A stretch of 64,000 bases of DNA, taken from assembly GCA_963823555.1 (NCBI GenBank), contig CAWGMA010000002.1, positions 640,001-704,000 of the forward strand. The letters run 5' to 3'. Shown in pieces: positions 34,566-55,492 of the stretch. Origin of the DNA: Candidatus Eiseniibacteriota bacterium (lineage in GTDB: Bacteria > Eisenbacteria > RBG-16-71-46 > CAVPCR01). Every line of letters begins with the position of its first letter. The stretch's first letter is position 1. The notes beneath the pieces were generated by a model. That model was not told the origin of the DNA. It did not search any database and worked only from the letters and a program-made list of their open reading frames with translations. The translations under genes were made by a program, and so were the position numbers.

Positions 34566-34716
34566 ATGGCCGTGTGCTGCCGCATCGAGCTTTTCGGCGG
34601 TCTCCGAATCGTGCGCGGAGAGTCCACGCTCACCCGCTTTCCGACGCACAAGACCGCCGCACTCCTTGCCTATCTCGCCTATCACAGCGACCGCGCGCAT
34701 CCCCGTGAGAGTCTGG
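34566..34716 (+). pseudogene. N-terminal fragment of a SARP/BTAD-type transcriptional regulator
   Basis: RIELFGGLRI...KTAALLAYLAY...HPRESL, cut exactly at the 216-bp element. Confidence 0.75.
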
Positions 34717-34932
34717 GCGCATAGGATCTTTCATCGGCCCTTTGGCCTGACCTCAGGTGTAGGACGGGGGATTGGGGAAGGGAAGGAGCGTGTCGGGGGG
34801 AAGCGGAGGGGCCCATGGCGCCGCGATGGCACGGCGGGGCGATGGCATCGGCCCATTGCTGAGCGCGGCGCGCGGCTAGGGCACGGAGGTCCCCCACCAC
34901 TCCGGCGGGATGCGCGGAGCGTCGCGGGGTTC
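34717..34932 (-). mobile_element. 216-bp ISCR/IS91-type oriIS mini-element, copy 1
   Basis: Matches the region downstream of the transposase (61207-61433); minus strand runs GAAC...GAAAGATCCTATGCGC; same ends as 52934-53149. Confidence 0.8.
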
Positions 34933-35186
34933 GCTCAGGCGGTCGATCCCGGAGCGCGTGCTCGCCGAGGCGGCTGCGCCCGAACCCGCGGTTGCAACGG
35001 CCACGGCTTGCCAGGCATCGCCGTGCCATGACCGATCCTGGACCCACCGAACCCGCTCCCCTCAGCCTGATGGCGACGAAGCCAACCGCCACCTGCGCCA
35101 AAGTGCCCACCACTACTCGCCAGTCCTTCGGACCGCCCTCCTACCTTCGCCTTTGGCTACGAACCGCAGTAGAATTGAGGGTGGCT

Positions 35187-35576
35187 ATGGGACGTCAGCA
35201 TTCACAACCTGCCGGAGCAGCGAGCGCCGGCGGAGCCCAGGTCGACTACGACCACATCGTCACCGGCACCACCGGCTTTCCCGGTGGCAGCGTCCTCGAG
35301 GCGATCCTGCCCGAGGTCGAGGGCCGCGTGTTCGTGATCGGCTGCTCTGCCCCAGAGCGCCCGCCCGCCGAGCGTCTGTCCTCGATCACCCGCCGGGCCG
35401 TAGGTGCCGATCGCATCGTGCCGATCGTCGGCACCGACAACCTGGCCGCCGCGCATGGGGAAGAGTTCGTCGAGTCGGTCGCGGCCATCGACGGCGCGGT
35501 GTCACGAACGCTGTTCCACCGTTACTTCCGCCGCCGGCCGAGCGCGGAGGTGCGCAATGGCCGCGTGCGCTACTGA
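35187..35576 (+). CDS. Hypothetical protein (start uncertain)
   Basis: GC3-biased ORF overlapping the start of the next gene. Confidence 0.45.
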   Translation: MGRQHSQPAGAASAGGAQVDYDHIVTGTTGFPGGSVLEAILPEVEGRVFVIGCSAPERPPAERLSSITRRAVGADRIVPIVGTDNLAAAHGEEFVESVAAIDGAVSRTLFHRYFRRRPSAEVRNGRVRY

Positions 35577-36780
35577 GCGCCCCGCAGCGCGTGAAGGGCC
35601 AGGGCGCGCGCTCGCCGCGCCGGGCACCGTACGCGATGTGGCGCTACTCGCGCTGCTCGCGCTCTGGGTGGGCGGGGCCGGGCCGGCGCGAGCCGGCACG
35701 GCGCTTGAGTGGCGCGGCGAGGCGTCCGCGATGGGCATCTTCGGTGACCGCGAACAGGTGACGCCCGGGGTGCGGCTGCGCTACGTGCCCGAGGCGCTGG
35801 TGACTTGGAAGGCCCGGCCGGGGCTGTCGTTCGACGCGGATGCGGCCGGCGAGTTGCAGGCGGAAACACGCTGGCCGCGCGATGCACCGGTCGAGACCGA
35901 CACCGATGCGTCGTTCTACCGGCTGTGGGCGAGCGTGGCGGGGTCGGCGACCGAGGTGCGCGCGGGCCTGCAGCAGGTCGACTTCGGCTCGGCCACGCTG
36001 CTGCGGCCGCTGATGTGGTTCGACACCCTCGATCCACGCGACCCGCTCAAGGCGACCGCGGGAGTGTGGGGGGTACGTTGGCGCCAGTCGCTGCCGTACG
36101 GCGCTGGGTTGTGGGCGTGGGGCCTACTCGGCAACGACGAGCGCCGCGGCTGGGACCTGCTGCCCTCGTCCGGCGACGAGCCCGAGGCCGGAGCGCGGTT
36201 GCAGGTTCCCGTGCCTCGTGGCGAGGTCGCCGGCGCCTACCATCACCGCACCGCGGAGTTCGCGCTCCCCGGCACGCCGGGCGCGCCGCCGATGTCGCAG
36301 GAGATCGCCGAGGACCGCTTCGGCTTCGACGCGCGGTGGGACGTCGGCATCGGCGCGTGGCTGGAGGGCTCCTGGACGGACCTGCGCGACACGCCGCTGT
36401 CCGGCGGCTGGCAGAGCGCGCTGTGCGCGGGCGGGGACTACACGTTTGGCGTGCTCGACGGCCTCACAGTCGCCCTCGAGCACATGCGCCTCGACGCTTC
36501 AGACGACCCGCTCGCGCGCGGCACGGGTCGCGACCTGACCGCGTTCTCGGTATTCCTGCGCCTCGGCGTGCTCGACACGGTGCGCGGGTTCGGGTTCAAG
36601 GACTGGGAGACCGGCGCGGACAGTCAGGTGATCGAGGTGCGGCGCACGTGGGACCACTGGAGCGTGCACCTTCTCGGATTCCGCGGCGGCGACGCGCTGG
36701 GCGCATTCGGCCCGGACGGGGCGTTCCCCGCCGGCAATGGGGGGCAGCTGATGCTGGTCTACCAACACGGGACGGAGTAG
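35557..36780 (+). CDS. Probable outer-membrane beta-barrel protein
   Basis: GGAGG RBS, signal peptide, RAGLQQVDFGSATLLRPLMWFD..DPRDP, alternating beta-strand pattern. Confidence 0.7.
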   Translation: MAACATERPAAREGPGRALAAPGTVRDVALLALLALWVGGAGPARAGTALEWRGEASAMGIFGDREQVTPGVRLRYVPEALVTWKARPGLSFDADAAGELQAETRWPRDAPVETDTDASFYRLWASVAGSATEVRAGLQQVDFGSATLLRPLMWFDTLDPRDPLKATAGVWGVRWRQSLPYGAGLWAWGLLGNDERRGWDLLPSSGDEPEAGARLQVPVPRGEVAGAYHHRTAEFALPGTPGAPPMSQEIAEDRFGFDARWDVGIGAWLEGSWTDLRDTPLSGGWQSALCAGGDYTFGVLDGLTVALEHMRLDASDDPLARGTGRDLTAFSVFLRLGVLDTVRGFGFKDWETGADSQVIEVRRTWDHWSVHLLGFRGGDALGAFGPDGAFPAGNGGQLMLVYQHGTE

Positions 36781-36782
36781 CG

Positions 36783-37529
36783 ATGACGGGAACTGAAGTG
36801 CGCCACGGCAGGTCGGACGGGCAGCCCGTCATCCGCACTCGTGACCTGGTCAAGACCTACCCGATGGGCGGTGAGACGCTCACCGCGCTCGACCGCGTCA
36901 GTCTCGACGTGGCGCGCGGCGAGTTCGCCGGGCTCGTGGGGCCGAGCGGTTCGGGCAAGACCACACTGCTCAACATCGTCGGCTCGCTCGACGTGCCCAC
37001 CTCGGGCAGCGCGCACGTACTGGAGCGCGACATCGGTGCGCTCGCAGAGAGCGAGGCGTCGGCGCTACGCAATCGATACATCGGGTTCGTGTTCCAGACC
37101 TTCAACCTGCTGCCGGCGTACACGGTGGCCGAGAACGTCGAGTTCCCGCTGCTGTTGCTGCGGGTGGCAGCCGCCGAGCGGCGTGCACGGGTGACGCGAG
37201 CGCTCGAGCTGGTGGAGCTCGCGGACCGCGGCGGGTCGCGCCCGCACCAGCTGTCGGGGGGCCAGAGCCAGCGCGTCGCGATCGCGCGCGCCATCGTCAA
37301 GGAACCCGAGTTGGTGCTCGCGGACGAGCCAACCGCCAACCTCGACGTGCGCAACTCCCACAACGTCATCCAGATCATGGAACGACTGAACCGTTCGCTC
37401 GGGACCACGTTTCTGTTCTCGACCCACGACGAGAAGGTCATCCGCTACCTGCGCCGCGTCATCACGCTCGCTGACGGGCGTGTGGAACGCGATGAGCGCC
37501 GCGAACCGCCGACTGGAGGCGGGGCATGA
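36783..37529 (+). CDS. ABC ATP-binding protein (LolD/MacB-type)
   Basis: [44 protein letters not shown]. Confidence 0.95.
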
Positions 37530-38719
37530 TGCTGCTCGGGCTCGCGCTGCGCAACCTGCGTGCCGCCGGCACGCGCACCGTGCTCAACGTGGTGGTGTTG
37601 TCGCTGGTGTTCGTGACCATCGTCGCCGCCCAGGGCTTGCTGGCGGGCATGAACCGCCAGATGACACGCGCCAGCCTCGAGGTCGAGTACGGCGGAGGGC
37701 AGTTCTGGAACGAGGCCTGGGACCCGTTCGACCCGCTCACGCTCGAGCGCGCGCACGGTTCGCCCGGCGTGGCGCTCGGCGCGCTCGAGGCCGACGGGCG
37801 CGCCGCGCCGGTGCTGGTGCTGTCGGGCGCGCTGTACCGCGAGGGCCGCATGCGCCCGGTGCTGCTCAAGGGCGTGCCGCCCCACCAGCGCGCGGTGGCG
37901 TTGCCGACCGCGGTGCTCGACGGCGACGCCGCGCGGCGCGCGACAGCCGAGGGCGCGATCCCCCTGCTGGTGGGAACTCGCATGGCGCGCACCGTGGGCC
38001 TCGCCGAGGGCGACGCGGTGGTGTTGCAGTGGCGCGACCGCGCGGGTGCTTTCGACGCGCGTGAGGGCCGCGTCGTCGCCATCATGAACACGCCGGTTCA
38101 GCGTGTGGACGTGGGACAGGTCTGGATGCCGCTCGCGACTCTGCGCGCGCTCTCCGGGATGGAGGGCGAAGCCACGCTGGTCACGCTCGCGGCCGGCATG
38201 CGACCGCCGCCACCACCGCCCGGCTGGGCTTTCCACGACACCGGCGAACTGCTGGCCGACGTGCACCGGGTCGTGCGGGGCAAGGCGATCGGCTCGTGGT
38301 TCGTTTACTCGCTCCTGCTGATGCTCGGCCTTCTCGCCATCTTCGACACCCAGGTCCTTTCGATCTTCCACCGCCGGAAGGAGATCGGCACGCTGATGGC
38401 GCTCGGCATGACACGCCGCCAGGTGGTAACGTTGTTCACGCTCGAGGGTGCGCTGCATGGGCTGTTCGCGGCTCTCGCCGGCGCGGCGTGGGCCACGCCG
38501 CTGCTGGCGTGGTTCGCGCATTCCGGCTGGAAGGTCACGGCCTCGACCGACCGCTACGGGTTCGCGCTCGGCGACCGCATCTACCCGCTGTACGGCGCGG
38601 GCCTGGTGTTCACGACCATCCTCGTGGTGCTGGCGGCAACCACGGTGGTGGCGTGGCTGCCGGCGCGGCGCATCGCGCGCCTGCGGCCCACCGAGGCGCT
38701 GCGCGGGAGGCTCGGGTGA
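37526..38719 (+). CDS. FtsX/LolCE-like ABC permease
   Basis: 1 TM + periplasmic domain + 3 TM; RRKEIGTLMALG, LRPTEALR. Confidence 0.9.
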   Translation: MMLLGLALRNLRAAGTRTVLNVVVLSLVFVTIVAAQGLLAGMNRQMTRASLEVEYGGGQFWNEAWDPFDPLTLERAHGSPGVALGALEADGRAAPVLVLSGALYREGRMRPVLLKGVPPHQRAVALPTAVLDGDAARRATAEGAIPLLVGTRMARTVGLAEGDAVVLQWRDRAGAFDAREGRVVAIMNTPVQRVDVGQVWMPLATLRALSGMEGEATLVTLAAGMRPPPPPPGWAFHDTGELLADVHRVVRGKAIGSWFVYSLLLMLGLLAIFDTQVLSIFHRRKEIGTLMALGMTRRQVVTLFTLEGALHGLFAALAGAAWATPLLAWFAHSGWKVTASTDRYGFALGDRIYPLYGAGLVFTTILVVLAATTVVAWLPARRIARLRPTEALRGRLG

Positions 38720-40059
38720 TCCGCTTCCTGCTCATGGGCCTGTTACGCGACCCGGCGCGCAGCCGCTTCCCGGTCGCCATCGTGCTGTTCGGCGTGGCGC
38801 TCACCGTTGTGCTGGTCAGCTGGGTGTCGGGCATCTCGAGCGACCTGGTGCGGACCAACGCGGCCTACGAGACCGGCCACCTCAAGGTGGTGTCGCGCGC
38901 CTACGCGCGCGAGTCCGACATGGCTCCCAACGACCTCGCGCTGCTGGGAGCGAGCGCGCTGCTCGACTCGCTGCGCGCGGCCGCACCGGGGTGGACGTGG
39001 ACCCCGCGCATCCGTATCGCCGGCCTGCTCGATGTGCCTGACGCCGCGGGGGAAACCCGCGCCCAGGCGCCCGTGCGCGGCCTCGGGCTGGCGCTCGCCG
39101 GGGAGGGCGCGCCCGAGCACGACCTGCTCGAGCTACGGCGCCTGCTGGCGCGCGGGCGGCTGCCCGCGGAGGCCGGCGAGATGCTGGCCACGGATGCGCT
39201 CGCGCGCCAGCTGGGGCTCGCGCCCGGTGACGTCGCCACGCTGGTGTCCTCGACCATGGACGGGAGCCTGACGACCTGGAACCTGCGCCTCGCCGGCACC
39301 GTGCGCTTTGGCATCGCCGCGCTCGACCGCGGCACTGTTCTCATCGACATCGCCGACGCGCGCGCGGCGCTCGACATGGACGATGCAGCGGGGGAGATCG
39401 TGGGCTTCGCACCGGGCGGCCTGTACGACGATGCGCGCGCGCGCCGCGTCGCGGAAGACCTGCGCGAGGCGGGCCTCGCGGGGGCGCCCGACGCCGCCGC
39501 TGCCGGCGATGACGCGGGCGCGGCGGGCGAGTTCGCGACCGACGAGTTCGTGACCGACGAGTTCGCGCCAGTGGTCCTGACGCTGCGCGAACAGGCGGGC
39601 CTGGGCCAGGTACTGGACCTGGCGTCCGCGGTCTCGGCGGCGCTGGTCGGTCTGTTCCTGGTGGTGATGTCGATCGTGCTGTGGAACTCCGGGCTGATCG
39701 CCGGGGTGCGGCGCTACGGGGAGATCGGGCTGCGGCTCGCGCTCGGCGAGGCGCGCCGCCACATCTACGGTGCGATGCTCGCGGAGTCCTTCATGGTGGG
39801 CGTGATCGGGTCGCTGGCGGGCACCGTGCTGGGACTGGCGATTTCGTACCGGCTCGAGGCGGTCGGTCTCGACCTCGGCTCGGTGTTGCGTCACTCCGAC
39901 ATGGTGGCCTCGAGCGTCATGCGCGCCCGCGTCACGCCCGCGTCGTGGGTCATCGGCTTCCTGCCCGGCGTCGGGGCGACGCTGCTGGGCACCGCCATCG
40001 CCTGGACCGGGGTGTTCCGCCGCCGCACCTCCCAACTGACGAAGGAGTTCGAGGCATGA
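38716..40059 (+). CDS. FtsX/LolCE-like ABC permease
   Basis: Same topology; RRYGEIGLRLALG. Confidence 0.9.
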   Translation: MIRFLLMGLLRDPARSRFPVAIVLFGVALTVVLVSWVSGISSDLVRTNAAYETGHLKVVSRAYARESDMAPNDLALLGASALLDSLRAAAPGWTWTPRIRIAGLLDVPDAAGETRAQAPVRGLGLALAGEGAPEHDLLELRRLLARGRLPAEAGEMLATDALARQLGLAPGDVATLVSSTMDGSLTTWNLRLAGTVRFGIAALDRGTVLIDIADARAALDMDDAAGEIVGFAPGGLYDDARARRVAEDLREAGLAGAPDAAAAGDDAGAAGEFATDEFVTDEFAPVVLTLREQAGLGQVLDLASAVSAALVGLFLVVMSIVLWNSGLIAGVRRYGEIGLRLALGEARRHIYGAMLAESFMVGVIGSLAGTVLGLAISYRLEAVGLDLGSVLRHSDMVASSVMRARVTPASWVIGFLPGVGATLLGTAIAWTGVFRRRTSQLTKEFEA

Positions 40060-40907
40060 TGCCGGATCGCCGCCCATCCCGCCGCCCCGAGGCCGCTCCC
40101 GGCGCGTCGGCGCTGCTCGTGCTGTTCCTCGCCGCCGTTCCCGCGCCACCGGTGCGCGCCGAGATGCCATCCGGCGACGATGTATTGCGGCGCGTGGACG
40201 CCAACATCGGCTCAGACACCAAGGCCACGCTCGCGACCATGATCATCCATGGCCGCCGCGGCAACCGCGAGGTCGGTATGCGGTCGTGGATCCAGGGCAT
40301 GGAGCGTTCGTTCACCGATTACCTGTCGCCGGCGCGCGAGCGTGGCACCCGCATGCTCAAGCTCAACGACATGCTGTGGACCTACAGCCCCGCGACCGAC
40401 CGTACCCTCCAGATCTCGGGCCACCTGCTGCGCAACGCGGTGCTCGGCTCGGACCTGTCGTACGAGGACCTGATGGAGGACCCGCGACTTCTCAACCTCT
40501 ACACCGCGACGGTTACCGACAGCGCGACCGTCGACGGCCGCGCGTGCTGGGTGCTCGATCTCCGTGCGCGCGACTCCAGCGTGGCCTACCCGTCGCGGCG
40601 CATCCACGTGGACCAGGAGCGCGGCGTGGTACTGCGCGAGGAGCGCTTCGCAAAGAGCGGTCGGCTGCTCAAGACGACCGAGGTGCGAGAGGTGGTGGCG
40701 ATGGGCGGACGCTGGGTGCCGACGCGGATGGTGTTCCGCGATGCCAACCGCGACGGTGGCGGCACCGAGTTCCTGGTCCACAGCATTGAGTTCGACGTGC
40801 GCATCCCGGAATCCCTATTCACCAAGGCCGCGCTGCGCCGCGGCGGGGAGGTTGACGCACCGGCACCGGCACCTGCTCCTGCTCCCACGCCTGTGCCCGC
40901 GCCCTGA
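40056..40907 (+). CDS. LolA-like outer-membrane lipoprotein-sorting protein
   Basis: SPARERGTRMLK...LWTYSP...LGSDLSYED...SGRLLKT...IPESLFTKAAL; Pro/Ala-rich tail. Confidence 0.85.
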   Translation: MMPDRRPSRRPEAAPGASALLVLFLAAVPAPPVRAEMPSGDDVLRRVDANIGSDTKATLATMIIHGRRGNREVGMRSWIQGMERSFTDYLSPARERGTRMLKLNDMLWTYSPATDRTLQISGHLLRNAVLGSDLSYEDLMEDPRLLNLYTATVTDSATVDGRACWVLDLRARDSSVAYPSRRIHVDQERGVVLREERFAKSGRLLKTTEVREVVAMGGRWVPTRMVFRDANRDGGGTEFLVHSIEFDVRIPESLFTKAALRRGGEVDAPAPAPAPAPTPVPAP

Positions 40908-40913
40908 GACCCC

Positions 40914-43433
40914 ATGCCCAACTTCGTCCCACTCCACTCACGGCGCGCCACCGATGCTGCGCTCACCGGCGGCAAGGCCGCCAGCCTCGCCAAGCTGATC
41001 CGTGCGGGCTTTCCTGTGCCAGCCGGCGTGGTGGTCACGACCGAGGCGTTCCGCCGCCTCAGACGATCCTGCGGCCTGCGACTTCCGGCGGCCGGCGCGC
41101 CGCTGACCGCCGAGGCTCTCGCCGAGGCCCGCGAGCGCATGATCCACGGGGCATGGCCGGACGGATTCGAACGCCGGCTGCTCGACCACACGCGTGCACT
41201 GCGCAGGCCCCTCGCTGTGCGGTCGTCCATGCGCGCTGAGGATGGCCTCGTCGCGTCGTGGGCCGGGCAACTTATTTCGCTGCTCGACGTGGCCGACGAC
41301 GCCGAACTGCTGCGGGCCGTGCGCCAGTGCTTCGCGTCGTGTTTCGGTGAGGACGCCGCCACCTACGCCCACCGGGCCGCGGGAGCCCCGGCCGCCGACC
41401 CGCTCGGCGATGTTGCAGCAGCGGTGCTCGTGCAGGAGATGGCGACGGCCACGGTGACCGGCGTCGCGTTCAGCGCAGACCCGCACAGCGGGCGGAAGTG
41501 CGTGGTGATCGAAGCCGCCGCGGGAGGCTCTGGGAGAGCCGTGGGGGGACGGGTCGTGCCCGACCGGTTCGTGGTGGATGAGCGCGGCGTGCTCGAGGAG
41601 TCTCGGCCAGCCCGGGCGGGCGCCCCGCTGCTCCCCGAGGCGCCGGTGCGGACACTCGCTGCGCTGGCTCGTGACTGCGAGCGATTTGCCGGCGAGCCGC
41701 AGGACATCGAGTGGGCATTGGACGGCGATCGCGCGACGCTGCTTCAGGCGCGACCCATCACCACTCTCAGCGGACAACACGTCTACTCGAACCGCCTCCT
41801 TCGCGAGTGGACGCCGGGACTCGTGGCCCCGCTCCTATGGTCTACTAACAGCCTCGGCATGACGCGCACCGTGTTCCACCGCGTGTTCACCAGCCTCATC
41901 GGCGAAAGTGACTTCGACTACAGCACGATCATTCGCCGCATCCACTCGCGGCTCTACGCCGACATGACGCTCATCGGCGGCCTGCTCGAACGCGCCGGGT
42001 TCCCCGCCAACACGTTCGAATGGATGCTGCGTGGCGACAAGGCGCGCTTCCGACCGCCCCGCATGACACCCCGTCTCGTACGCTCGGCCCTGCGCTTCTG
42101 CGTGTTCGCCTGGCGGAATGGGCGCCTCGATCACGAGGTCGAGAGGTTCATCGAGGAGCATGCCCGGCACACCGCACGCCTCCAGGACGTGGACTGGCCG
42201 GTCGCGGGAAACGAGGTGCTCGCATCCACCAGCCGCGATCTGCAGACGCTACATGGCCGCACGCAGTGGTATGCGTGGGTCAGCGCCCTCAACCTGCACA
42301 TCCGCGCCCGCATCCTGGGTCGCATGATCCGACGCCACGCACCCCACGTCGACGTCAAGGACCTTCTGCTCGGTCTGCGTGATGAAGCGGGTGCCAGCCC
42401 GGAGCGCGCGCTCGAACAGGTCGCGCGCGGGGCCGTCGGGCTCGACACCGCAACGCACCTGGCCATGCTGGCCGGCGACGACGACGCCATGCGGGCGCGG
42501 CTCGCCAAGGAAGTGAGCGGCCCGGCGCTCATGCGCGAGGTGGATCGACTGCTCGAACGCTTCGGCCACTTGAGCGCCAACGGCACGGACTTCACGCGGC
42601 CCACCTGGTCCGAGCAACGAGGCCAAGTATGGGTCGCGATCGCGCGCGCGCTACAATCCGGCGGGTCCGTCCAACGCGCTGGCAAATCCAAGCGGGCCGA
42701 TGCGGCGGATCGGGTCCGTGCGGGCTTCGGCCCGGTGAAGCGGCTGGTGTTCGAGCGGCTTCTGCGCTCGACGTCCCGGTGGATGCGCCTGCGCGAGCGT
42801 ACGAGTCTGCTCATGTCGAGGGACGCGGCTGAAATGCGGCGCGTGTTTCTCGAGCAGGGTCGGCGACTCGCGGTCGCCGGGGCCCTCGACGAAGCCCCCG
42901 ACGTCTTCATGCTGATGCTCGATGAGCTACACGAAGCGACCGGGGGTGAGCGGCCCCCCGCGGCGACCCGGGCGCTCGCGCGCCAGCGGCGGCGCGAGAT
43001 GGAGGAGGACGCTCTGATCGAACCCGAAGACACGCTGGCGGGCGAGCAGAGCGAGCGGGTGGTTCCGGCACCGGCAGCAGATCTCGAGTATCTGGTCGGG
43101 ATCCCGGCGAGTCCCGGGGTGCGGCACCTCACCGCGCGCCTCGTTCGGGACCCCACCGCGGTTCGCGGCGTGCTCACGGTGGACGACGCGCTCGTGACGC
43201 CGTTCACCGACGCCGGCTGGACGCTGCTGTTCGCCGAGGTCGGCGCAGTCGTCTCCGAGACCGGAGGCCAGCTTTGCCATGCGGCGATCGTCGCGCGCGA
43301 GTACGGGCTTCCCGCGGTGGTAAGCGTAAGGGATGCGCTGTCGCGCATCCGCGAGGGCCAGCGCATCGTCGTCGATGGCGGTGCAGGGCGGGTTTACCTT
43401 CACGATGGTGATGAAAGGGAAAGCGGCACATGA
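40914..43433 (+). CDS. PEP/pyruvate-binding + PEP-utiliser His-swivel enzyme (RPH/PEPS-like)
   Basis: GGKAASL, AVRSS.RAEDG..SWAG, VLVQEM, QDIEW, LLQARPITT, TDAGW, GGQLCHAAIVAREYGLP. Confidence 0.88.
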   Translation: MPNFVPLHSRRATDAALTGGKAASLAKLIRAGFPVPAGVVVTTEAFRRLRRSCGLRLPAAGAPLTAEALAEARERMIHGAWPDGFERRLLDHTRALRRPLAVRSSMRAEDGLVASWAGQLISLLDVADDAELLRAVRQCFASCFGEDAATYAHRAAGAPAADPLGDVAAAVLVQEMATATVTGVAFSADPHSGRKCVVIEAAAGGSGRAVGGRVVPDRFVVDERGVLEESRPARAGAPLLPEAPVRTLAALARDCERFAGEPQDIEWALDGDRATLLQARPITTLSGQHVYSNRLLREWTPGLVAPLLWSTNSLGMTRTVFHRVFTSLIGESDFDYSTIIRRIHSRLYADMTLIGGLLERAGFPANTFEWMLRGDKARFRPPRMTPRLVRSALRFCVFAWRNGRLDHEVERFIEEHARHTARLQDVDWPVAGNEVLASTSRDLQTLHGRTQWYAWVSALNLHIRARILGRMIRRHAPHVDVKDLLLGLRDEAGASPERALEQVARGAVGLDTATHLAMLAGDDDAMRARLAKEVSGPALMREVDRLLERFGHLSANGTDFTRPTWSEQRGQVWVAIARALQSGGSVQRAGKSKRADAADRVRAGFGPVKRLVFERLLRSTSRWMRLRERTSLLMSRDAAEMRRVFLEQGRRLAVAGALDEAPDVFMLMLDELHEATGGERPPAATRALARQRRREMEEDALIEPEDTLAGEQSERVVPAPAADLEYLVGIPASPGVRHLTARLVRDPTAVRGVLTVDDALVTPFTDAGWTLLFAEVGAVVSETGGQLCHAAIVAREYGLPAVVSVRDALSRIREGQRIVVDGGAGRVYLHDGDERESGT

Positions 43434-44239
43434 CACCGCATGTCCCGCTGGCGGTGCTCGCCGGCTACCTGCTGGGTTCGATCTCGACGGCCCGCCTTGT
43501 CACGCGCCTCGCCGCGCCCGGCGCGCGCGCGCGGCAAGGCACCACTCTCCGGCTGGAGGGCAGCGAGCACACAATGAAGCTGCGGACTGTGAGCGCCACG
43601 TCGGTCTCGCTTCAGATCGGACCTCGGTACGGGTTTCTCACCTACGTGCTCGACTTGCTGAAGATCGCGCTGCCGATGCTGCTCGTGCGCCACCTGTTCC
43701 CGGACCGCACGCTCTACCTCTGGTGTGGTGCCGCCGGCATGCTGGGCCACGTGTGGCCGGTTTGGCACGGATTCCGCGGTGGGCGCGGGATCTCGGTGGC
43801 CTACGGTGGCCTGCTCGTGATCGACCCCATCGGTGTCATCGTCACATCGCTTGCCGGCATGCTTCTCGGGCTCGTGGTCGTGCGCGACGTCATCGTAGCC
43901 TACATGGGTGGTGTCCTGCTCATCGTGCCGTGGGTGTGGCTGCGCACGCACGACGAAGCGGTGATCATGTGGGCGGTGTTCGTCAACATCGTCTTTTCCA
44001 TCGCCATGGTGCCGGAGATCCGCCAGTGGGTCCGGATTCGGCGCCAGGACAAGTGGAATGACACGGCAGAGGTCATGCAGCTATCGGGTATGCTGCGCGG
44101 GATCTTGCGGATGGGCATTGCGTTGCGCCTGGTGAAACGGCGCGACGTGCGCGCGCCAGCGCTCATGACCGAGCCGGGCAAAGAGAGAAGCGCGGAGGCC
44201 GGCGCGCGCCGAGACCCCGGCGAAGCTCCACATCGCTGA
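43430..44239 (+). CDS. Divergent PlsY-like (glycerol-3-phosphate acyltransferase family) membrane protein
   Basis: GYLLGSI, LDLLK, GHVWPVWHGFRGGRG; the canonical GxGNxGxTN and HxxN motifs are not present. Confidence 0.75.
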   Translation: MTPHVPLAVLAGYLLGSISTARLVTRLAAPGARARQGTTLRLEGSEHTMKLRTVSATSVSLQIGPRYGFLTYVLDLLKIALPMLLVRHLFPDRTLYLWCGAAGMLGHVWPVWHGFRGGRGISVAYGGLLVIDPIGVIVTSLAGMLLGLVVVRDVIVAYMGGVLLIVPWVWLRTHDEAVIMWAVFVNIVFSIAMVPEIRQWVRIRRQDKWNDTAEVMQLSGMLRGILRMGIALRLVKRRDVRAPALMTEPGKERSAEAGARRDPGEAPHR

Positions 44240-44373
44240 GGGTCTCGCTGGCGGCCGTACCGCAGGGCAGTCACGATCGACGCGTGGCCATGCGATCGCC
44301 GGCGGCTCCTTCGCTTCGTCGCTTGCCGCCCGCGTGCCTCCGAGTGCCGGAGAAGCTCCGGCTAGCGTCGCCC

Positions 44374-45010
44374 TGTTGCTCCCGAAAACCCATCTTACGG
44401 GGCAGAGGTCGAGTCGGGAGGCGGCCGGGAACACGGCGAGGGTCCGCGCGGCGCGGCTGTCGGGTGAACGAGGCAACAGAGGTAAGGGCCGGCTGGGTTG
44501 GGAACGTCGGCGTCCCCGTCATCCTGTGGCTGGCACGGGATAGATGGTCTGCGAGACGGGGTGGCTTCGTCGCTCGTCAGGCGGCTCGTCGCTCGTAATG
44601 GTGATGCAACCCGCTAACCTCGACGATCTCGACGACCGCGCCGGCTGTGTGCGGTTGAACCGAGCGGTGCTCAGGCGCAAAGGACATGGAACCTCACGGT
44701 CGGTACGACGAAGAAGTCGATGGCGACCGTGTCGGCCAGATGGTTCTTGAGGAACGCCTTCCAAGTTGGCGAGGACGGCTCTCGGGGTCGGACCATGTAC
44801 CGCTCGACGGTGGACTTCGCGACAGCGATGCCGATCTTGCGGAGTTCGCCGAGGACTCTGGGCTCGCCCCAGAGCGGGTTCGCGGAAGACATCCTTCGAA
44901 TGAGTTCGCGGACTTCCTTCGTGACCGCCGGGTGTCCAGGCCTGCCGGACTGGGAAAGTCTGCGCCAGTGATCGCGGAACCGACGCCTCTGCCAGGCGAT
45001 CACCGTCGAA
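44374..45010 (-). mobile_element. Remnant of an rve-family IS with internal deletion and right end
   Basis: WQRRRFRDHWRR...ANPLWGEPRVLGEL...IDFFVVPT joined to C-terminal GLHHHYERRAA*; 44374-44592 repeated at 47907-48125; end TGTTGCTCCCGAAAACCC. Confidence 0.85.
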
Positions 45011-45237
45011 CGAGGAGATCGCGCGTCTCGGTGACCTGGTACGCGCTACAGTCGGTTGCCCGATCGAGGTGATCGTGGACGGCGGCCCCTCGCGGCGGCT
45101 TCTCGAGCCCGGAGGCGCCGGCTCAAACAGCAGTACGCGAACAGGCGCCGGGTGAAAGGCACAACCACGCATCTGCCGCGGTCGAGGTCGTCCCGCCGCT
45201 ACGCTCATCCCGGTCAGCAGTCATCCCGGGTCAGCAG

Positions 45238-47601
45238 TCAGCGAGTCAAGACCATCCGGCCGGTCTCGCTCCGCTCAAGCGCCTCGAACCGATAGAAGTA
45301 GGTGCCGCTCTTCACTTCGTGTCCGAGAGCGTCACGCGCATCCCAGCTCACGACGTGGGAACCTGAGGGCATTTCCTCGTACACCAGCTTGCGGACGAGT
45401 CTGCCGGTCACATCGAAGATGTCGAGCCGCACCCTGCCCGGATTCTCGAGCGAGAAGGAGAGTGCCGTCGATGACCCGAAGGGATTGGGGACGCTCTTGA
45501 CCAACCGCGGCGCAGCGGATGGGGTTTCGGCATCATCCACGGCGACCGGACCCTGGTCGGGCACGGTGAGCACGGCGATGCCCCGGCTGGCGCAGGCCAG
45601 CCAGATCTCGTAGCCGCCGGGGACCGCCCGCACCTCGGCGTCGTAGATCTGCGCGTGCGGCAGTCCCTGGTCGCGGGTGATCGCTCCGAACTCGATCCCG
45701 TCGAACCAGACGAGCGACGGCTCGACGCCCTGGCTGTTGAAGTTCGTGAACCAGACGAGTCCGTCGGGAGACACGGCGAGCGGCGTGACCTGGTCGTCCG
45801 GGAAGGTCGGAGTTGCTTGGTGCCACCACTGGTGCGTGCCGGTGTTCGCGTCGAGGCGGAAGAGACCCTCGGTGCTCCCCACCCAGGCGATGCCCCGGGA
45901 GCCGCGGCGACCGTCGGTGAGCACATCGTGCATCGGGTTGAGCTCGGGGAAGTCGGCGTTCTCGCGCGAGAAGCGGTAGTTGCCGTCGGTGCGCACCACC
46001 TCGAGGTTGGCGCACGCCCAGACGGTGCCGGGACGATCCGGATCCCGGACCGACGTTCGCGCCCCAGCCCGCGATCGGCACCGTCGTGGAAGCCGGTCCC
46101 GTCGTGGTAGCGGAGGCTGAAGTAGTTCCCCATCGTCCAGAGGCGGCCCTCCGAGTCCTCGACCAGTCCGTCGGACGAGGAGCCCTCCTCGAGGGTCGAT
46201 GTAGCCCGCAGCCGTCCCACTCGCGGATGCCGTTGAACATCGGGTTGAAGGCGACGTTGCCCGATCGATTCGCGGTAGGTGATCGCGTCGGCGTTGTCGG
46301 TCGGGAAGGGCCAGTCCTCGCCCGAGCCCGTAGGTCAGGACGTTGTGGTTGTGCCAGCGCTCGCCGTCGAAGACGCCGATGCCGCCGACGCCCGGGCCCG
46401 CGTTGTCGGTGACCCAGACGTCGCCGTTCGGCGCGAAGGCGATGTCGCGGAGGAAGTTGTCCATCTGCCCGGTGTTCGTGATGCGGTAGCGCTGCCAGAA
46501 GCCGGTCTCGGCGTCGCGCCGGGCGGCGCCGCCGTTGCCGGAGACCCAGACGTTGCCCGCGCTGTCCATGTCGATGGCGTAGGTGAAGCCGCCGGCGCGC
46601 CAGCTGCCGAGGTTCGACCAGCCGGCGCCGTCGAAGTGCCAGGCCTCGCTGTTGCCGCCGATGAGGAGGACCTCGCCGTCGCCGAAGGCCCGGAACGGCA
46701 TCGAAGGCATAGAACGGCGAACGGACGGCTGGGCGGCGCCACCCAGGTTCCGTCGGGCCGCCGGTACTCGAGCGAGTAGCCCTGTCCCGGCGTGACGAAG
46801 CGGAGCATCCAGCAGTTGCCCACGTCGTCGCAGGCGTCGTCGTGAGGGATGGCCTCGATCTCGCCCGGGCACGTCGTCGTTCGGCAGCACGGTGAACAGG
46901 TCGGTGTCGCTGTCGTAGCGCGCGATGCCGAAGGCGTCGTCGATCCAGACGAGGTAGCCGCCGCCCGGCTTCGGCTGGACGCGCCGCACTGCTGGTCGCG
47001 GTCCACCCGGGCCAGCCGTTGGCGTTCGAGCCGTAGCCCCAGACCGTCCAGGTGTCCGTGCTCGGGACGTAGCGGGCGAGGCCGCCGCCGTTGCCGTAGC
47101 AGGCGAACCAGACCGATCCGTCGGGCGCCACGCTCACGTCCATCGTGCGCCCGCCGGGCATCGGGGAGTTGCACGGCGTCGTAGCGAACGAGCGAGCTCG
47201 GGCCCGACGGCGGGATCGAAGTAGAGCGCGCCGCGCCAGGTGCCCATCCAGAGCGCGCCGTCGGCGTCGGGCGCGATGTCGCTGATGCGGGCGGCGCCGG
47301 TGTTCTCCGGATCGCCGATGACCGGGTAGTCGACGTTGGAGAAGTTCTCCCAGCGGTTCTCGGCTGCGATGAATCGGGAGAAGCCGCCCTCCTCGAAGAA
47401 CGGGTCGTAGCAGCCGATGTAGGGCGTGCCGTCGGGGGCGATCCAGAGGGCGTCGCTGTAGTCGCCCATGACGCCGGTGTTGCCCGGACGGTAGTACTTC
47501 CAGGAGTACGACTGCGGAGGGTCGGCGGAGGAGTGACCCGTGATGGCGACCAGGAGGGGCAGAACCATCAGCCACGACGACCAAGCACCACGTTCGAACA
47601 T
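45238..47601 (-). CDS. Secreted Reg_prop-like beta-propeller protein with FlgD/T9SS-like tail (multiple frameshifts)
   Basis: Signal peptide; DxxGxxW repeats (DADGALW, APDGSVW, DSAGNVW, SPDGLVW); GLPH; PNPF...FDVTGRLV...WDARD..G....SGTYFYR. Confidence 0.8.
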
Positions 47602-47906
47602 TGATAGCCTCCCGTTCTGAACAGGTTGATGCCGGCTCGGAGGCGGCTCGGTCGCAGATACGCCTCGACCTCCGCACTTCATCATGAACAATAGACAAGG
47701 AGCCCCGAGCCTTTGATACGAGGTTGAGCGGATAAGACTCAGAACCCGCGGTGGTGGCCGCGATTTGTTGGCACGGCTGTCCTGTGGCCACTGGATCACA
47801 GGTGACCTCCCCGACCCCGCAATCCATTCTAGAATAACAGCATAGCACGTTCCGGGCGGAGGATCAGCCGGAAGGTGATCTGCGGCTCGCCAGGGATGAC
47901 GGGGCT

Positions 47907-48395
47907 TGTTGCTCCCGAAAACCCATCTTGCGGGGCAGAGGTCGAGTCGGGAGGCGGCCGGGAACACGGCGAGGGTCCGCGCGGCGCGGCTGTCGGGTGA
48001 ACGAGGCAACAGAGGTAAGGGCCGGCTGGGTTGGGAACGTCGGCGTCCCCGTCATCCTGTGGCTGGCACGGGATAGATGGTCTGCGAGACGGGGTGGCTT
48101 CGTCGCTCGTCAGGCGGCTCGTCGCGGGCGCTTGGCCGATCGCTGGTAGACGGCCAGCTGGTGCCGCAGGGCCAGAATCTCGAGCTGCATCGAGGCACGG
48201 GAGCGGAAGGCGTTGACAATACAGGCGTATATGGCGACGAGGACGGCGTTCATGGTTCGTGGTCGGCTCCGGCGCTGGCGAAAGGCGCGGAGTGTACCAC
48301 GGGGCCTGGCCGGGCCCCTCGGCGGGTGCGAGGCGGTGCGCCGGTGGGATGACAAGGTGAGGCGGGGCAACGACTACGAGTTCTCGGGAGCCACA
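47907..48395 (-). mobile_element. 489-bp mini-IS (internally deleted rve-family element with both ends)
   Basis: IRs TGTTGCTCCCGAAAACCC / reverse complement TGTGGCTCCCGAGAACTC; transposase N-terminus (LEILALRHQLAV) fused directly to RRAA*. Confidence 0.8.
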
Positions 48396-48445
48396 AGACG
48401 CGGGGACCTACCAGGCTCTAGGGAGCGAGAAGATCGAACCCCGCC

Positions 48446-48830
48446 TCATCAAACGGGCCTTCCAGGCTGACGGAACGCCGATCCCCTCGGGCGCCGACGT
48501 CCCCGCCGGCGTAACCGTGAAGTTCCTCTTCTACATCAACAACCCGGGGGACGCGATCCTCGACGTCAGCGCCGGGGACGTGCTCGATCCCGCCGCGTTC
48601 CAGTACCTGCCGGCGACGATCAAGGTCGACGCCTCGGTCGACGTCTGCGCCGATCCGGACTGCACTGCCGCGGAAGAATCCGCTATCTTCGCCGCGGTCG
48701 ATGGCGCTGGGACGCTGACCGATGCGGTCGACGGCGACGTCGCCAGCTTCGACGCCGCGACGAACACGATCGATTTCGGGGACCAGGACCGCCCCAACGC
48801 CACGCTCGACCTGGCTGCCGACGCGGCTCC
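48446..48830 (+). pseudogene. Fragment of an acidic secreted beta-sandwich-like protein
   Basis: LIKRAFQADGTPIPSG...VKFLFYINN...LTDAVDGDVAS...NATLDL; lacks both termini. Confidence 0.5.
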
Positions 48831-49030
48831 AACTGGGGCGGGCAGAAAGGTCGAAACAGCGTTGCGTGACAGCTGGGGCGGGCCCCGTCCCGGAGCCGAG
48901 GGTCCGGCCGCCCGCCCCGGAGGGGCCCCCGGGCCCCCCGGCCGGTAGCCGAACGGCCCATCGCGGCCGGGGCCAGCAGCGGCTATCCTCCCTCGTGCAT
49001 TCCGCCCCCACCTGTCGGAAGGAACTGATC

Positions 49031-51351
49031 ATGCCTCCATTCGTTCGCGTGCTCGCCTCGCTCAAGCTGACGACCGCGCTGCTGATCCTGCTCGCCATCG
49101 TCCTGTCGGTCGGCACCATCCTCGAGTCGCTGCGTGGCACTGCAGCCGCCCGGGCCGTCTACTACGCGCCGTGGTTCTTCGCGCTGCAGGGCGTGTTCGC
49201 GCTCAACGTCACGGCCGCGCTCTGGGCACGCTGGCCGCGCAACCGCTGGCGCATCGGATTCCTGATCACGCACACCTCGATGCTGCTCATCCTCGCGGGC
49301 GCCGTGGTGACCGCGTGGAAGGGCGTAGACGGACAGCTCGGCCTGTGGGAGGGCGAGAGCTCGAACCAGTTCCTGCGCCTCGTGGACGGCCACGAGTCGG
49401 CCACTCCGATTCCGTTCACCGTCCGTCTCGACGACTTCCAGATGGACGTCTATCCCGGCACGCAGCGCGCCTCGATGTACCGGAGCCGCATCACGGTGCT
49501 GGACGGCGGGCGCGCGATCCCGGCCGTGATCGAGATGAACAAGCCGTTCACGCACGGCGGCTACCGCTTCTTCCAGTCCAGCTACCAGTTCAGCGAGGGC
49601 CGCGAGATGTCCGTGCTCTCGGTCGCGAGGGACCCGGGGCAGGACATCGTCTTCTGGGGGTACTACTTGCTCGTCGGCGGCATGCTGGTGGTGATGGTCA
49701 CGCGCATCTTCCAGCACCGTGCCGCCGTGAAGCTGCGCACCGCGCCGGCCGGCGCGCCGGTTGCGAGGCTGCACATCGTGGTGCTCGCCGCCGCGCTCGG
49801 TGCGGCGGCTCTGGCCGGCGGCCCGCCGGCCGCCGGGGCGGCGCAGCTGCCATCCGCCGACGCCCTGCCGGCGCTCAAGCAGTTGCCCGTCCAGTACGAC
49901 GGCCGCGAGATGCCGTTCGACACGCAGGCGCGCGACGCCGTGCTGCAGGTGACCGGCCAGCGGCGCTGGAAGGGCATGGACCCCGTGGCGATGGTGATGG
50001 GCTGGTCGCTCGACCCGGAGGGCTGGATGCGCGAACCGATCGTGAAGATCGACCCGCTCATCGCGACCACCGTCGGCCTGCCCGCGAACACGCGGCACAC
50101 GAGCTACCAGAAGCTGCTCTCCAGTCAGCGGCTGCTCGCGCTCATGGGTCCGGCGCTCGAGCGTGCCAGCCACCGCCACGACCCCGAGCCCGGGGACAAG
50201 GACCTGCTCGAGTTCAACGAGCGCCTCACGGTCCTGCACGTGTTCCTGAACGGCGAGGCCATCCGCACCATGCCGGGCGAGAACCGCGTGGACCTCTGGC
50301 GCGCGCCGCCGTTCCCGAACTCGCTCGAGACGTGGACGAAGATGGAGGCGCAGGCGCGCGCGGGCGCGCCTACGTTCTACCCCACCCCGGCCGCGATCCA
50401 GCGTGAGCTGCTCTACAACGCGGTGGACTTTCCGCGCATCGCCTGGTGGCTGCTGCTGCCCGCCGCGCTCGCCGCCGGCATGACGCTCGAGCGCGACCGC
50501 TGGCGGCTGCGCTGGCTGGTCGCCGCCGGCATGGTCGCCGGCTTCGCGGTGATGACCTGGGGCATCGCGACGCGCTGGCAGGTCGCGCGGGCGCATCCCG
50601 GCCTCGAACATGTACGAGTCGATGCTCTTCCTCGGCTGGGGCGTCGGGCTCTTCGGCGGTGATCTCGCTGCTCGCTGCGCAACCGCATGCTGATCTTCAA
50701 CGCCGCCGCGATGTCGGCGCTCGCCATGCTGCTGCGTCGACCGCCTGCCGATCGACCCGTTCATCCACCCGATGCCGCCGGTGCTCTCCGGCACGCCGTG
50801 GCTCGCGATCCACGTGCCGATCATCATGGTGAGCTACTCGACGTTCGCGATCGCCACGTTCCTCGCCCACCTCGTCCGGTCGGGCGTCGCGGCTCTTCGC
50901 GCCCCGGCGCGCGGCCGAGCTGGCGACGAACGTGGAACGAGCTCGCTCTACTGGTACATGCACGTCGGCTCGATCCTGCTCATCGCCGGCATCCTGACCG
51001 GCTCGATCTGGGCCGCCTCGTCGTGGGGCCGCTACTGGGGCTGGGACCCGAAGGAGGTCTGGTCGCTGGTCGCGTTCCTCGCCTACATGGCGATCCTGCA
51101 CGCGCGCATCGACGGCCAGATCGGCTCGTTCGGCGTCGCGCGTGGTCGCATCGTCGCCTTCTGGACGATCCTGATGACCTACCTCGGGCGTGAACTACGT
51201 CCTCGGCTCGGGGCTGCACTCCTACGGCTTCGGCAGCGGCAACCTCCTCAACACCATGATGGTCGTCGCGCTGCTCGAGGCCGGCTTCATCGTCGCGGCC
51301 TGGCGCGCCGGGAGCACGAAGGCCGTGCCCGCGGCGCCGGCGAGGGCGTAG
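49031..51351 (+). CDS. ccsBA: Fused ResB/CcsB-CcsA cytochrome c synthase (system II; frameshifted at the 3' end)
   Basis: ResB-like N-terminus (LASLKL, GFLITH, MNKP..GGYRFFQSSY, RDPG); NMYES, WLAIHV, WWD motif WGRYWGWDPKEVW, GLHSY. Confidence 0.88.
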
Positions 51352-51444
51352 CGCGCGACCGGTGCGGACGCTGACGGGCCCCTGACGGCGGGCGCCCGAG
51401 AAGCGCTCTAGCTTCAACCCCGCGGAAAGGTGGTCAATGTGAAG

Positions 51445-52404
51445 ATGCGGACTCTGCTCGAATCTCAGTTCCTGCCGATGCTCGCCGCCGGCTTGCTGCT
51501 GGCTGCCTTGGCCCACGCGCAGGATGGCCCCTGCCAAACCGCGTCCAGGTTCGGCCCCGATGATCAGATCGGGAACGTCAGGCACGTTACGCCGGCCAAG
51601 ACGCTCTCCGCGTCGAAACTGATCACCGCGGGAAAGTCCTACCGGCTCGGCATCGAGACCAACAAGGACACGCCCGCATACGGCACGCGGAGATTCAGCA
51701 TTACCGTGCTGCAACCGGACCAGGCCGGCGGCGTCGGTATGGGGCCGACCAAGACCACCTACAACGACGACATCATCACGGGCTGGGTCGGCATCGGTTC
51801 GCAGATCGACGGGTTGGGGCATGTCGGCATCGACAATGTCTATTTCAACTGCAACAGGGCGGCCGACTTCGTGCGCCCGGACGGCCTGACCAAGCTCGGT
51901 GTCGAGAACATCCCGGCGATTGTGACCCGGGGCGTTCTTCTCGACATCGCCGGGTATCTTGGCACCGACATCGTGAAGGAGGGCACCGCGATCAACCGGG
52001 CTGAGATCGAGGGGGCGATGAAGCGGCAGAGCATCAAGGCAATCGAGAAAGGTGATGTCGTGCTCTTTCACACGGGATGGATGCAGCTCCTCGGAAAGGA
52101 CAACGAGCGCTTCATCTCCGTTGGCCCAGGCCTCGGGCGCGATGGCTCACGATACCTCGCCTCTTTGGAGGTGGCGGCGGTCGGCATCGACACGCCGAGC
52201 TTCGAGGTGATCCCCTTCGAGAACGGCGCCGGCGTATACGAGGTCCACCAGATCCTGCTGGCGATGAACGGCGTCTACCTGCTCGAGAGCATGAATACAG
52301 CCGAGCTTGCACGCGACAAGGCGTGGGAGTTCTTCTTCACGCTTGGAACGCCGCGGATAACCGGTGGCGTGCAGGCGATCGTCAATCCGATAGCCATCAA
52401 GTAG
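51445..52404 (+). CDS. Secreted cyclase-family (kynurenine formamidase-like) metal hydrolase
   Basis: FGPDDQIG, GSQIDGLGH, TRGVLLD, GDVVLFHTGW, VHQILL..NG..LLE, NPIAI. Confidence 0.88.
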   Translation: MRTLLESQFLPMLAAGLLLAALAHAQDGPCQTASRFGPDDQIGNVRHVTPAKTLSASKLITAGKSYRLGIETNKDTPAYGTRRFSITVLQPDQAGGVGMGPTKTTYNDDIITGWVGIGSQIDGLGHVGIDNVYFNCNRAADFVRPDGLTKLGVENIPAIVTRGVLLDIAGYLGTDIVKEGTAINRAEIEGAMKRQSIKAIEKGDVVLFHTGWMQLLGKDNERFISVGPGLGRDGSRYLASLEVAAVGIDTPSFEVIPFENGAGVYEVHQILLAMNGVYLLESMNTAELARDKAWEFFFTLGTPRITGGVQAIVNPIAIK

Positions 52405-52532
52405 CCGCGAAGCAAGTCCGGTGGGTTCGGCGATCCAGTTGATCCGGGCTAGTCGACTCGACGAGATCTATCGCGGCCTGGGGTGGGCGGCGCCTCCTCC
52501 AGACCAGGACGCCGGTTGCCGATAACGTCCTC

Positions 52533-53296
52533 ATGGCCGGCGTCGTTCTGGTAGCTGCCTTCGTCCTTCCCCTGGGGCTTGCCCTGTGGTCGCACCGCGT
52601 CGCCCTGCGCGAGCGGCCCCCCTCGTACTTCGCCTTCATGCAGCGTAGCCAGTGGGTGGGTCTGGTCTCCGCCCTCCTCTGGCTCCCGCCGGCGTTCCGG
52701 CTCCTCTTGCCGGCAGTTCACGCGGGGTTGGGCGACAACGCCCCCTGGCTCAGGTGGGGGGTGGCCATGGGAGTCCTGGCGGGTCCACTCGTCGTTTCCC
52801 TCGCCACGCTCGCCGCTCTCGGCTTCGATGTCGCGCGCCGGGCGGGGCTCACTGATTGGACCTGGCGCGAGGCGCGCCGCGATGCCCTGCTCCTTCTCGC
52901 CGGCACGCTGCTCCCGCTCACGATAGGCGCCGAGCGCATAGGATCTTTCATCGGCCCTTTGGCCTGACCTCAAGTATAGGACGGGGGATTGGGGAAGGGG
53001 AGGAGCGTGTCGGGGGGGAGCGGAGGGGCCCATGGCGCCGCGATGGCACGGCGGGGCGATGGCATCGGCCCATTGCTGAGCGCGGCGCGCGGCTAGGGCA
53101 CGGAGGTCCCCCACCACTCCGGCGGGATGCGCGGAGCGTCGCGGGGTTCTGGGGAATGGTCCTGTTCTGGGGATTCGTATGGCCGTGGCTCCTGATCGCC
53201 GTCCATCGCCGCCCCCTCAGGCGGCTGGTCGAGCGCATCATCGGTGAGGTCGATGCTGCGGGCGTTCCGGCGGGGTCGCCGCACCGAGCTGCCTGA
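52533..53296 (+). pseudogene. Multi-TM membrane protein interrupted by the 216-bp element
   Basis: Removing 52935-53149 (or 52934-53145) restores one frame: LLPLTIGAE-(F)WGMVLFWGFVWPWLL. Confidence 0.65.
52934..53149 (-). mobile_element. 216-bp ISCR/IS91-type oriIS mini-element, copy 2
   Basis: Same length and ends as 34717-34932 with few substitutions; no target duplication. Confidence 0.8.
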
Positions 53297-54254: not shown

Positions 54255-54272
54255 CCGCTGCTCCACGCCTCG

Positions 54273-54362: not shown

Positions 54363-54396
54363 TGTACATGGGTGCGCGCGCGGGGATGGTGGGACC

Positions 54397-55472: not shown

Positions 55473-55492
55473 TGGAGGTCGGCGCGGCGGTG

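What the first reader, a model, noticed from the sequence alone, without database searches (positions are those of the whole stretch)
34717..53149. 216-bp non-autonomous rolling-circle (ISCR/IS91-type) mini-element moving with precise ends
Seen: copies at 34717-34932 and 52934-53149 have the same length and ends, with no terminal IRs and no target duplication. They equal the segment between an internal GTTC and the oriIS-like tip of the transposase-bearing element at 61207-62620. Copy 2 interrupts a membrane-protein gene whose frame is restored on excision. Copy 1 truncates a SARP regulator and joins it to unrelated DNA. Known: IS91-family transposition terminates at GTTC/CTTG and leaves no duplication, and ISCR transposases have a single Tyr (RLCRY here). 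Inference: a cryptic terIS generates MITE-like mini-ISCRs that are mobilised in trans.
Basis: partly seen in the sequence, partly recalled or inferred. Interest (0 to 1): 0.7.

Follow-up and report, generated by a model that had tools for sequence, protein, structure and literature searches.

The report
Transposon origin-end stubs at DNA seams
The two 216-base repeats are the starting end of a rolling-circle-type jumping gene, and the one copy that could be tested joins pieces of two unrelated genes rather than splitting one gene, so they are likely short moved ends of a kind already seen in one plant-pathogenic bacterium.

Summary
The repeats are real: 98% identical, no inverted repeats, no duplication. 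They are the origin (oriIS) end of an ISCR-like element, stopping at its first internal GTTC. An intact-looking transposase lies on another contig.

The clean-insertion claim fails. Removing the 216 bases breaks the frame. In a same-genus genome the two halves belong to different genes on different contigs: a 686-aa M48 peptidase and a small membrane protein. Both flanks of copy 2 are 96-98% identical to that genome, against 71-83% for ordinary shared DNA, so they look acquired.

GTTC is not a family rule. Only these 2 of 17 element pieces end there, and 0 of 38 origin tips follow GTTC/CTTG. The true ends could be 214 and 219.

Best reading: a one-ended miniature like the 229-nt IS801 fragment (PMC3189936), left at seams by later rearrangement. 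This scan noted solo oriIS ends at seams in other genomes before. New member of a known kind; interest 0.3.

The parts
34717..34932 (-). Copy 1: oriIS end of the ISCR-like element. The tip is at the low coordinate, the transposase-sense strand is minus, and it ends at the first internal GTTC.
34933..34935 (.). GCT that also matches the long element, so the right end of copy 1 lies between 216 and 219.
   Evidence: no relative found to resolve it
34566..34716 (+). First 50 codons of a SARP/BTAD-type regulator, cut at the tip of copy 1.
   Evidence: 70% identical to a ~1,160-aa paralog with Trans_reg_C and BTAD
52934..53149 (-). Copy 2: the same oriIS end, at a seam between two genes.
48396..52932 (+). 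Left flank of copy 2: a block 96-97.5% identical to G001:C2:56090-51113 (ResB-like, cytochrome c assembly, cyclase, start of M48 gene).
52533..52932 (+). N-terminal 133 codons of a 686-aa M48 peptidase-family gene; the catalytic part is missing from this genome assembly.
52933..52933 (.). One A belonging to neither the element tip nor the flank as seen in G001, X2 or X5.
53148..55491 (+). Right flank of copy 2: a block 96-98% identical to G001:C1:215700-213134, another contig. It begins with the last 48 codons of a different membrane protein (open frame 199 aa in G001).
57822..58358 (-). Third copy, without the tip, running past GTTC to element position 551.
61207..62630 (-). Long copy with tip and Y2_Tnp part, cut on the far side and lacking the zinc-binding domain.
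60963..61205 (-). Origin-like end (GGGATAGGAATT) of a second IS91-family element that is multi-copy in G001; it abuts the 61207 tip.
14136..14246 (-). Internal fragment of the same transposase gene.
17386..17508 (-). Internal fragment of the same transposase gene.

Best explanation
The two 216-bp pieces are the origin end of an ISCR-like element, likely released once as a short one-ended transposition product stopping at an internal GTTC, and copy 2 joins fragments of two different genes. Shown: the element identity, the exact tip, the shared lineage of the two short copies, an intact-looking 564-aa transposase frame at G000:C4:25884-27575, and the hybrid flanks of copy 2. Inferred: the transposase nicks at the GCGCAT tip and peels one strand; termination at position 216 gives the short form; the enzyme comes in trans from the C4 copy or a sibling. 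Also inferred: the hybrid flanks arose afterwards, when copies at different sites recombined or when a copy re-started at its origin, read through GTTC and carried the neighbouring DNA to a new site. The pieces therefore work as portable joints in a patchwork island, not as clean MITE insertions.
For: Tip: it starts at the same base in 11 places in the genome with different left flanks. It resembles the end of an annotated plasmid IS91-family element (ACGTATAGGAAG) and the ISCR1 oriIS quoted in PMC13023784 (passage). Transposase: Zn_Tnp_IS91 plus Y2_Tnp, 38% identical to that plasmid protein with RLCRY shared. End: position 216 is the first of 4 GTTC in 2,000 nt, and only 1% of positions lie 0-4 nt after a GTTC. 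Two different right flanks are joined there, and 7 columns are private to the two short copies. Precedent: IS801 gives 229/360/679-nt right-end fragments bounded by a GAAC-like tetranucleotide (PMC3189936, passages); GTTC is the terIS cleavage site of IS801 and IS1294 (PMC13181058, passage). Seam: G001 and contigs in 3 of 4 laid runs (2 studies) leave the window at 52932 and enter it at 53148. Neither missing partner was found in G000. Long copies carry block-wise mixed alleles, as recombination would leave.
Against: Only 2 copies exist, and no clean filled-versus-empty pair was found for either. 15 of 17 pieces in the genome end elsewhere, and a second pair of ends (1416, 1417) coincides without GTTC. 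0 of 11, 0 of 19 and 0 of 8 tips follow GTTC/CTTG, whereas in IS91 proper the target and the terminal tetranucleotide are related (PMC13181058). The true ends could be 219 and 214. No special hairpin precedes position 216: 42% of 40-nt windows fold as well. The natural terIS of the element could not be defined. G001, the closest match to both flanks of copy 2, lacks this element. PMC3189936 itself concludes that most genomic IS801 fragments come from reorganisation.
Confidence: 0.55

Rival explanations
1. Ragged stumps. The pieces are leftovers of long copies cut back by deletion or illegitimate recombination, and the GTTC is a coincidence.
For: Far-side ends are scattered in G000 (76 to 1748) and in G003. 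Copy 2 has a 2-nt overlap with its flank and copy 1 a 3-nt extension. With about 16 ends and 1% target space, one end near a GTTC has roughly a 15% chance (my arithmetic). The 1416/1417 pair shows that ends can coincide without GTTC.
Against: Two different right flanks join within 5 nt of each other, at the first GTTC from the origin, on two copies that share private alleles. One truncation explains only one of those joints.
Confidence: 0.25
2. Stitching adaptor. The transposase-bound short end is joined directly to incoming foreign DNA fragments on both sides, building the island piece by piece.
For: Both flanks of copy 2 are mid-gene cuts from one sister lineage but from distant chromosomal loci. 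That lineage's representative has no copy of the element. Same-orientation arrays of exact tips with ragged far ends occur at G000:C4:19935-27575 and in G003.
Against: Other repeat families in the window show a similar bracket pattern (219-bp and 151-bp pairs), which points to general recombination. Only one of the two copies could be tested. There is no biochemical support.
Confidence: 0.1
3. Assembly chimera. The assembler joined DNA of co-occurring species through short repeats near a contig end.
For: The window lies about 22 kb from the end of C2, whose last 9.4 kb duplicate the start of C4 at 98.6%. An earlier scan note reports assembly frameshifts in this genome (unchecked). No laid contig spans the whole of copy 2 with both flanks.
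Against: Contigs of run X1 cross both joints of copy 2 without a mismatch (52886-53030: 48 nt of flank; 53134-53284: only 16 nt of element), and no X1 contig shows an alternative partner. X1 is at about 3-fold depth and may be the source sample, so it is not independent. The chimera would need further false joints at 48396 and 55491.
Confidence: 0.07
4. One reading: a precise 216-bp MITE-like element inserted cleanly into one membrane-protein gene.
For: Same length and same apparent ends, no duplication.
Against: The frame is not restored by a 216-nt excision. The halves are from two genes on two contigs. Three other runs show the same break points.
Confidence: 0.03

Closest known systems
Miniature right-end fragments of IS801 (229, 360, 679 nt), Pseudomonas syringae pv. 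phaseolicola; PMC3189936 (abstract and passages read)
   Same: An origin-end fragment of about the same size, without a transposase, bounded by GAAC (GTTC on the other strand), with no inverted repeats. Two genomic 229-nt copies are reported there.
   Different: IS801 miniatures were caught transposing and IS801 uses tetranucleotide targets. Here the parent is ISCR-like, shows no target tetranucleotide, movement is only inferred, and the tested copy sits at a seam, not in a clean site.
ISCR elements (ISCR1, ISCR2, ISCR8); PMC13393415 and PMC13023784 (passages); NCBIfam NF052416
   Same: HUH transposase with RLCRY, oriIS downstream of the gene, an ill-defined far end, and foreign DNA next to the origin end.
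   Different: The NF052416 score is 266 bits against a cut-off of 925, and identity to the best plasmid transposase is 38%. No integron or resistance context was shown.
IS91, IS1294 and one-ended transposition; PMC13181058 and PMC5737581 (passages)
   Same: No target duplication, two unlike ends, and read-through that can carry adjacent DNA.
   Different: They insert after CTTG/GTTC; 0 of 38 tips of this clade do. NF033538 scores 96.5 bits against a cut-off of 125.
Bacterial MITEs (definition in PMC3189936, passage)
   Same: Short, non-coding, dependent on a transposase in trans.
   Different: No terminal inverted repeats, no duplication, no internal deletion keeping both ends, only 2 copies.

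Membership tests
IS91/ISCR superfamily (parent element) | HUH rolling-circle transposase with Zn_Tnp_IS91 and Y2_Tnp domains | tested here: met
   both above the Pfam cut-off in the C4 copy
IS91/ISCR superfamily (parent element) | Exact oriIS tip downstream of the gene, with a subterminal palindrome | tested here: met
   same tip in 11 places; small hairpin at positions 18-33; like the plasmid element's end
IS91/ISCR superfamily (parent element) | No terminal inverted repeats, no target duplication | tested here: met
IS91 proper (IS91, IS801, IS1294) | Insertion after a CTTG/GTTC-type tetranucleotide | tested here: not met
   0 of 11 tips in G000, 0 of 19 in G003, 0 of 8 in other loci
IS91 proper (IS91, IS801, IS1294) | Defined terIS with palindrome and GTTC/CTCG cleavage site | tested here: inconclusive
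   only one copy reaches past the gene start; far ends in G003 vary
ISCR clade | Single catalytic Tyr (RxxxY where IS91 has YxxxY; this criterion is recalled, from no call) | tested here: met
   RLCRY aligned with RLCRY of the plasmid transposase
ISCR clade | Score above the NCBIfam ISCR clade Ia cut-off | tested here: not met
   266.5 against 925 bits
IS801-type one-ended miniature | Intact origin end plus a terIS-like tetranucleotide at the other end | tested here: inconclusive
   GTTC at 216 in both copies, but the ends may be 219 and 214
IS801-type one-ended miniature | Clean insertion into an otherwise intact target | tested here: not met
   copy 2 flanks are from two genes; copy 1 had no relative in 205 other genomes searched
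IS801-type one-ended miniature | Transposition shown in a trap assay | not testable with these tools
   needs bench work
MITE | Terminal inverted repeats of the parent at both ends | tested here: not met
   8 of 20 terminal bases match

The most novel reading that the evidence does not exclude
Short ISCR origin ends act as transposase-driven adaptors that ligate mid-gene fragments of other species' chromosomes into growing islands. This would be a bacterial counterpart of Helitron gene-fragment capture that needs no target tetranucleotide. Copy 2 would be a base-resolved example: both neighbours come from one sister lineage, from distant loci.
Probability: 0.12. Interest if true: 0.65.

Novelty: new member of a known kind. 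Interest (0 to 1): 0.3.

Why it matters
ISCR elements are thought to capture resistance genes, but their rolling-circle transposition is described as presumed (PMC13393415, passage). This genome offers a harmless test set: an intact-looking transposase, a 216-nt candidate minimal substrate, and one seam mapped to the base against a relative. It also shows that such repeats can look like clean insertions from sequence alone when they are rearrangement joints. With two copies and a published precedent, the finding itself is modest.

Tried and rejected
More copies of the short form: none found. Exact-pattern scans of metagenome contigs and genome contigs gave 0, and viral contigs gave 0. A tip pattern matched only G000 among 206 genomes of the phylum. 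The 216-mer gave only 4 weak 39-54 nt hits in 60 relatives and none in 156 loci of related transposases. These collections may leave out close records.

Empty site for copy 1: none in G001-G004, none in 205 other genomes, and none visible in the truncated table.

In-frame excision was tried with six boundary choices. The in-frame ones give a chimera of two genes and were rejected.

Folding of the whole piece is weaker than all 200 shuffles (z +1.99). No promoter-like or terminator-like site lies in 34600-35100. A hairpin signal before the ends was not found.

The ISCR review PMC1489542 is not held, so nothing is cited from it.
Full report
Observation. The two copies are there: 34717-34932 and 52934-53149, 216 nt each, 4 differences. 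There is no target duplication (1 and 0 nt) and no terminal inverted repeat (8 of 20 bases). A BLAST of the 216-mer against the 4.6-Mb genome gave 11 hits. Two stop at GTTC, seven run on past that point into a longer element, and two are shorter stubs.

Parent element. The longer element encodes an HUH transposase. The window copy is cut at 62630 and lacks the zinc-binding domain. One open frame with both Zn_Tnp_IS91 and Y2_Tnp lies at G000:C4:25884-27575 (564 aa). It is 38% identical to an annotated plasmid IS91-family transposase and shares RLCRY with it. Its best NCBIfam match is ISCR clade Ia, at 266 bits against a cut-off of 925. That IS91 proper has two tyrosines there is recalled, from no call. 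The tip GCGCAT(A/G)(A/G)GA lies downstream of the gene, resembles the end of the plasmid element and the ISCR1 oriIS quoted in PMC13023784, and recurs in G003 and in other loci. So the 216-mer is the oriIS end. An earlier scan note calls the host Eisenbacteria-like; I did not test this.

Copy 2 is not a clean insertion. Removing 52934-53149 gives a stop after 148 aa; only 215- or 212-nt removals read through. Contigs from 3 of 4 laid runs (X2, X3, X5; 2 studies) follow the left flank to 52932 and then leave, and join the right flank at 53148 from other DNA. One X2 contig goes on for 2,841 nt without reaching the right flank. The same-genus genome G001 settles it. The left half is the first 133 codons of a 686-aa M48 peptidase gene on its contig C2. 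The right half is the last 48 codons of another membrane protein on its contig C1. Neither missing partner was found in G000, which is 92.5% complete.

The flanks look acquired. Window 48396-52932 is 96-97.5% and 53148-55491 is 96-98% identical to G001. A 20-kb control stretch of G000 matches G001 at 71-78%, and the G001 neighbourhoods of both blocks match G000 contig C1 at 70-83%. Both blocks are therefore chromosomal DNA of a G001-like lineage, cut in mid-gene and joined by the 216-mer. The joints carry one unassigned A on the left and a shared TC on the right. G001 itself has no copy of the 216-mer. Contigs of run X1 cross both joints without mismatch, the right one with only 16 nt of element; X1 is shallow and may be the source sample.

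Copy 1. It cuts a SARP-type gene after 50 codons; a paralog is 70% identical there and about 1,160 aa long. No relative of either flank was found in 205 other genomes, so the empty site is untested. Its match to the long element runs 3 nt past GTTC.

Is GTTC a real end? For: position 216 is the first of 4 GTTC in 2,000 nt, and 1% of positions lie 0-4 nt after one. Two different right flanks meet there, and the two copies share 7 columns that none of the 7 long copies aligned has. Against: of 17 pieces that match the intact copy, the other 15 end elsewhere, some of them internal fragments, and another pair of ends (1416, 1417) coincides without GTTC. Far ends in G003 are also scattered. No tip follows GTTC or CTTG: 0 of 11 in G000, 0 of 19 in G003 (7 of them stutters of the tip itself) and 0 of 8 elsewhere. 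In IS91 proper the target is such a tetranucleotide (PMC13181058). No hairpin marks position 216. The ends may truly be 219 and 214. I rate the GTTC end as likely but unproven.

Mechanism. Shown: identity, exact tip, common descent of the short pair, a possible enzyme in trans, and hybrid flanks at copy 2. Inferred (0.55): early termination made a 216-nt one-ended product, and later recombination between copies, or renewed read-through from the origin, gave the hybrid flanks. Rivals: ragged stumps (0.25), direct stitching of foreign fragments (0.10), assembly chimera (0.07), clean MITE insertion (0.03).

Known work. PMC3189936 (abstract and passages) trapped 229-, 360- and 679-nt right-end fragments of IS801, 26% of its insertions, bounded by GAAC-like tetranucleotides. 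It concluded that most genomic fragments come from reorganisation and serve as recombination regions. PMC13181058, PMC5737581, PMC13023784 and PMC13393415 were read as passages only; no supplements were opened. Six literature searches listed no paper on short origin-end elements of the ISCR clade. I saw only listings and abstract starts for the other hits, the library lacks most subscription journals, and the main ISCR review is not held. This scan has noted solo oriIS ends at seams in other genomes (AI notes, unchecked). I met the IS801 paper before reading those notes.

Verdict. A real feature, half as described. It is a new member of a known kind: it works like an IS801-type one-ended miniature, but fails the target and clean-insertion tests, so it is not filed as IS91 proper or as a MITE. 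Interest 0.3. The bold reading, that ISCR origin ends stitch foreign gene fragments directly, has probability 0.12 and would deserve 0.65.

Noticed in passing
window 44374-44592 and 47907-48125: A 219-bp direct repeat (99.5%) starting TGTTG brackets a 3.3-kb block; the second copy runs on into DNA also found on C3. It looks like the end of another mobile element showing the same bracket pattern.
   Followed up: no
window 28852-29232 and 55917-56297: A 381-bp element in two copies (98%) with terminal inverted repeats TGTACT...AGTACA and relatives on C3; a conventional MITE candidate.
   Followed up: no
window 56298-56351: 54 nt, 98% identical to the anti-sigma-like gene that lies just beyond the intact transposase on C4; it may be a trace of read-through from that copy.
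   Followed up: no
window 43173-44247, 56571-57698, 60963-61205: More blocks 93-98.5% identical to scattered places in G001.
   Followed up: partly
G000:C4:19935, 23143, 25592: Three same-orientation tips in 6 kb; two copies are cut on the far side, the last is intact. The DNA between them has no match in G001, while synteny resumes after 27823.
   Followed up: partly
L204-L222 (G003); L043, L044 (G001); window 61207-61227: Tip stutters: GCGCAT repeated before 7 of 19 G003 tips, GGGATAA-type repeats at tips of the second element, and a short repeat inside the 61207 tip. They may record repeated initiation or insertion at the origin.
   Followed up: no
window 20950-21100 and 32396-32546; 21432-21508; 59084-60337; 60377-60529: A 151-bp repeat pair, an 11-bp tandem array, a 621-bp tandem duplication in a FlgD-Ig/DUF4350 gene, and a 75-bp pair.
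   Followed up: no
G000:C2 from 713,925 on, and G000:C4:1-9414: The end of contig C2 duplicates the start of C4 at 98.6%, so this part of the assembly is tangled.
   Followed up: no
G000:C4:110643 and C4:503600: Both element pieces lie beside a similar palindromic repeat that recalls an integron attC site (recalled pattern, from no call; sequences).
   Followed up: no
window 56850-57326: Weak Pfam match to aminoglycoside-2''-adenylyltransferase (E 2.4e-4), in a block 98.5% identical to G001.
   Followed up: no
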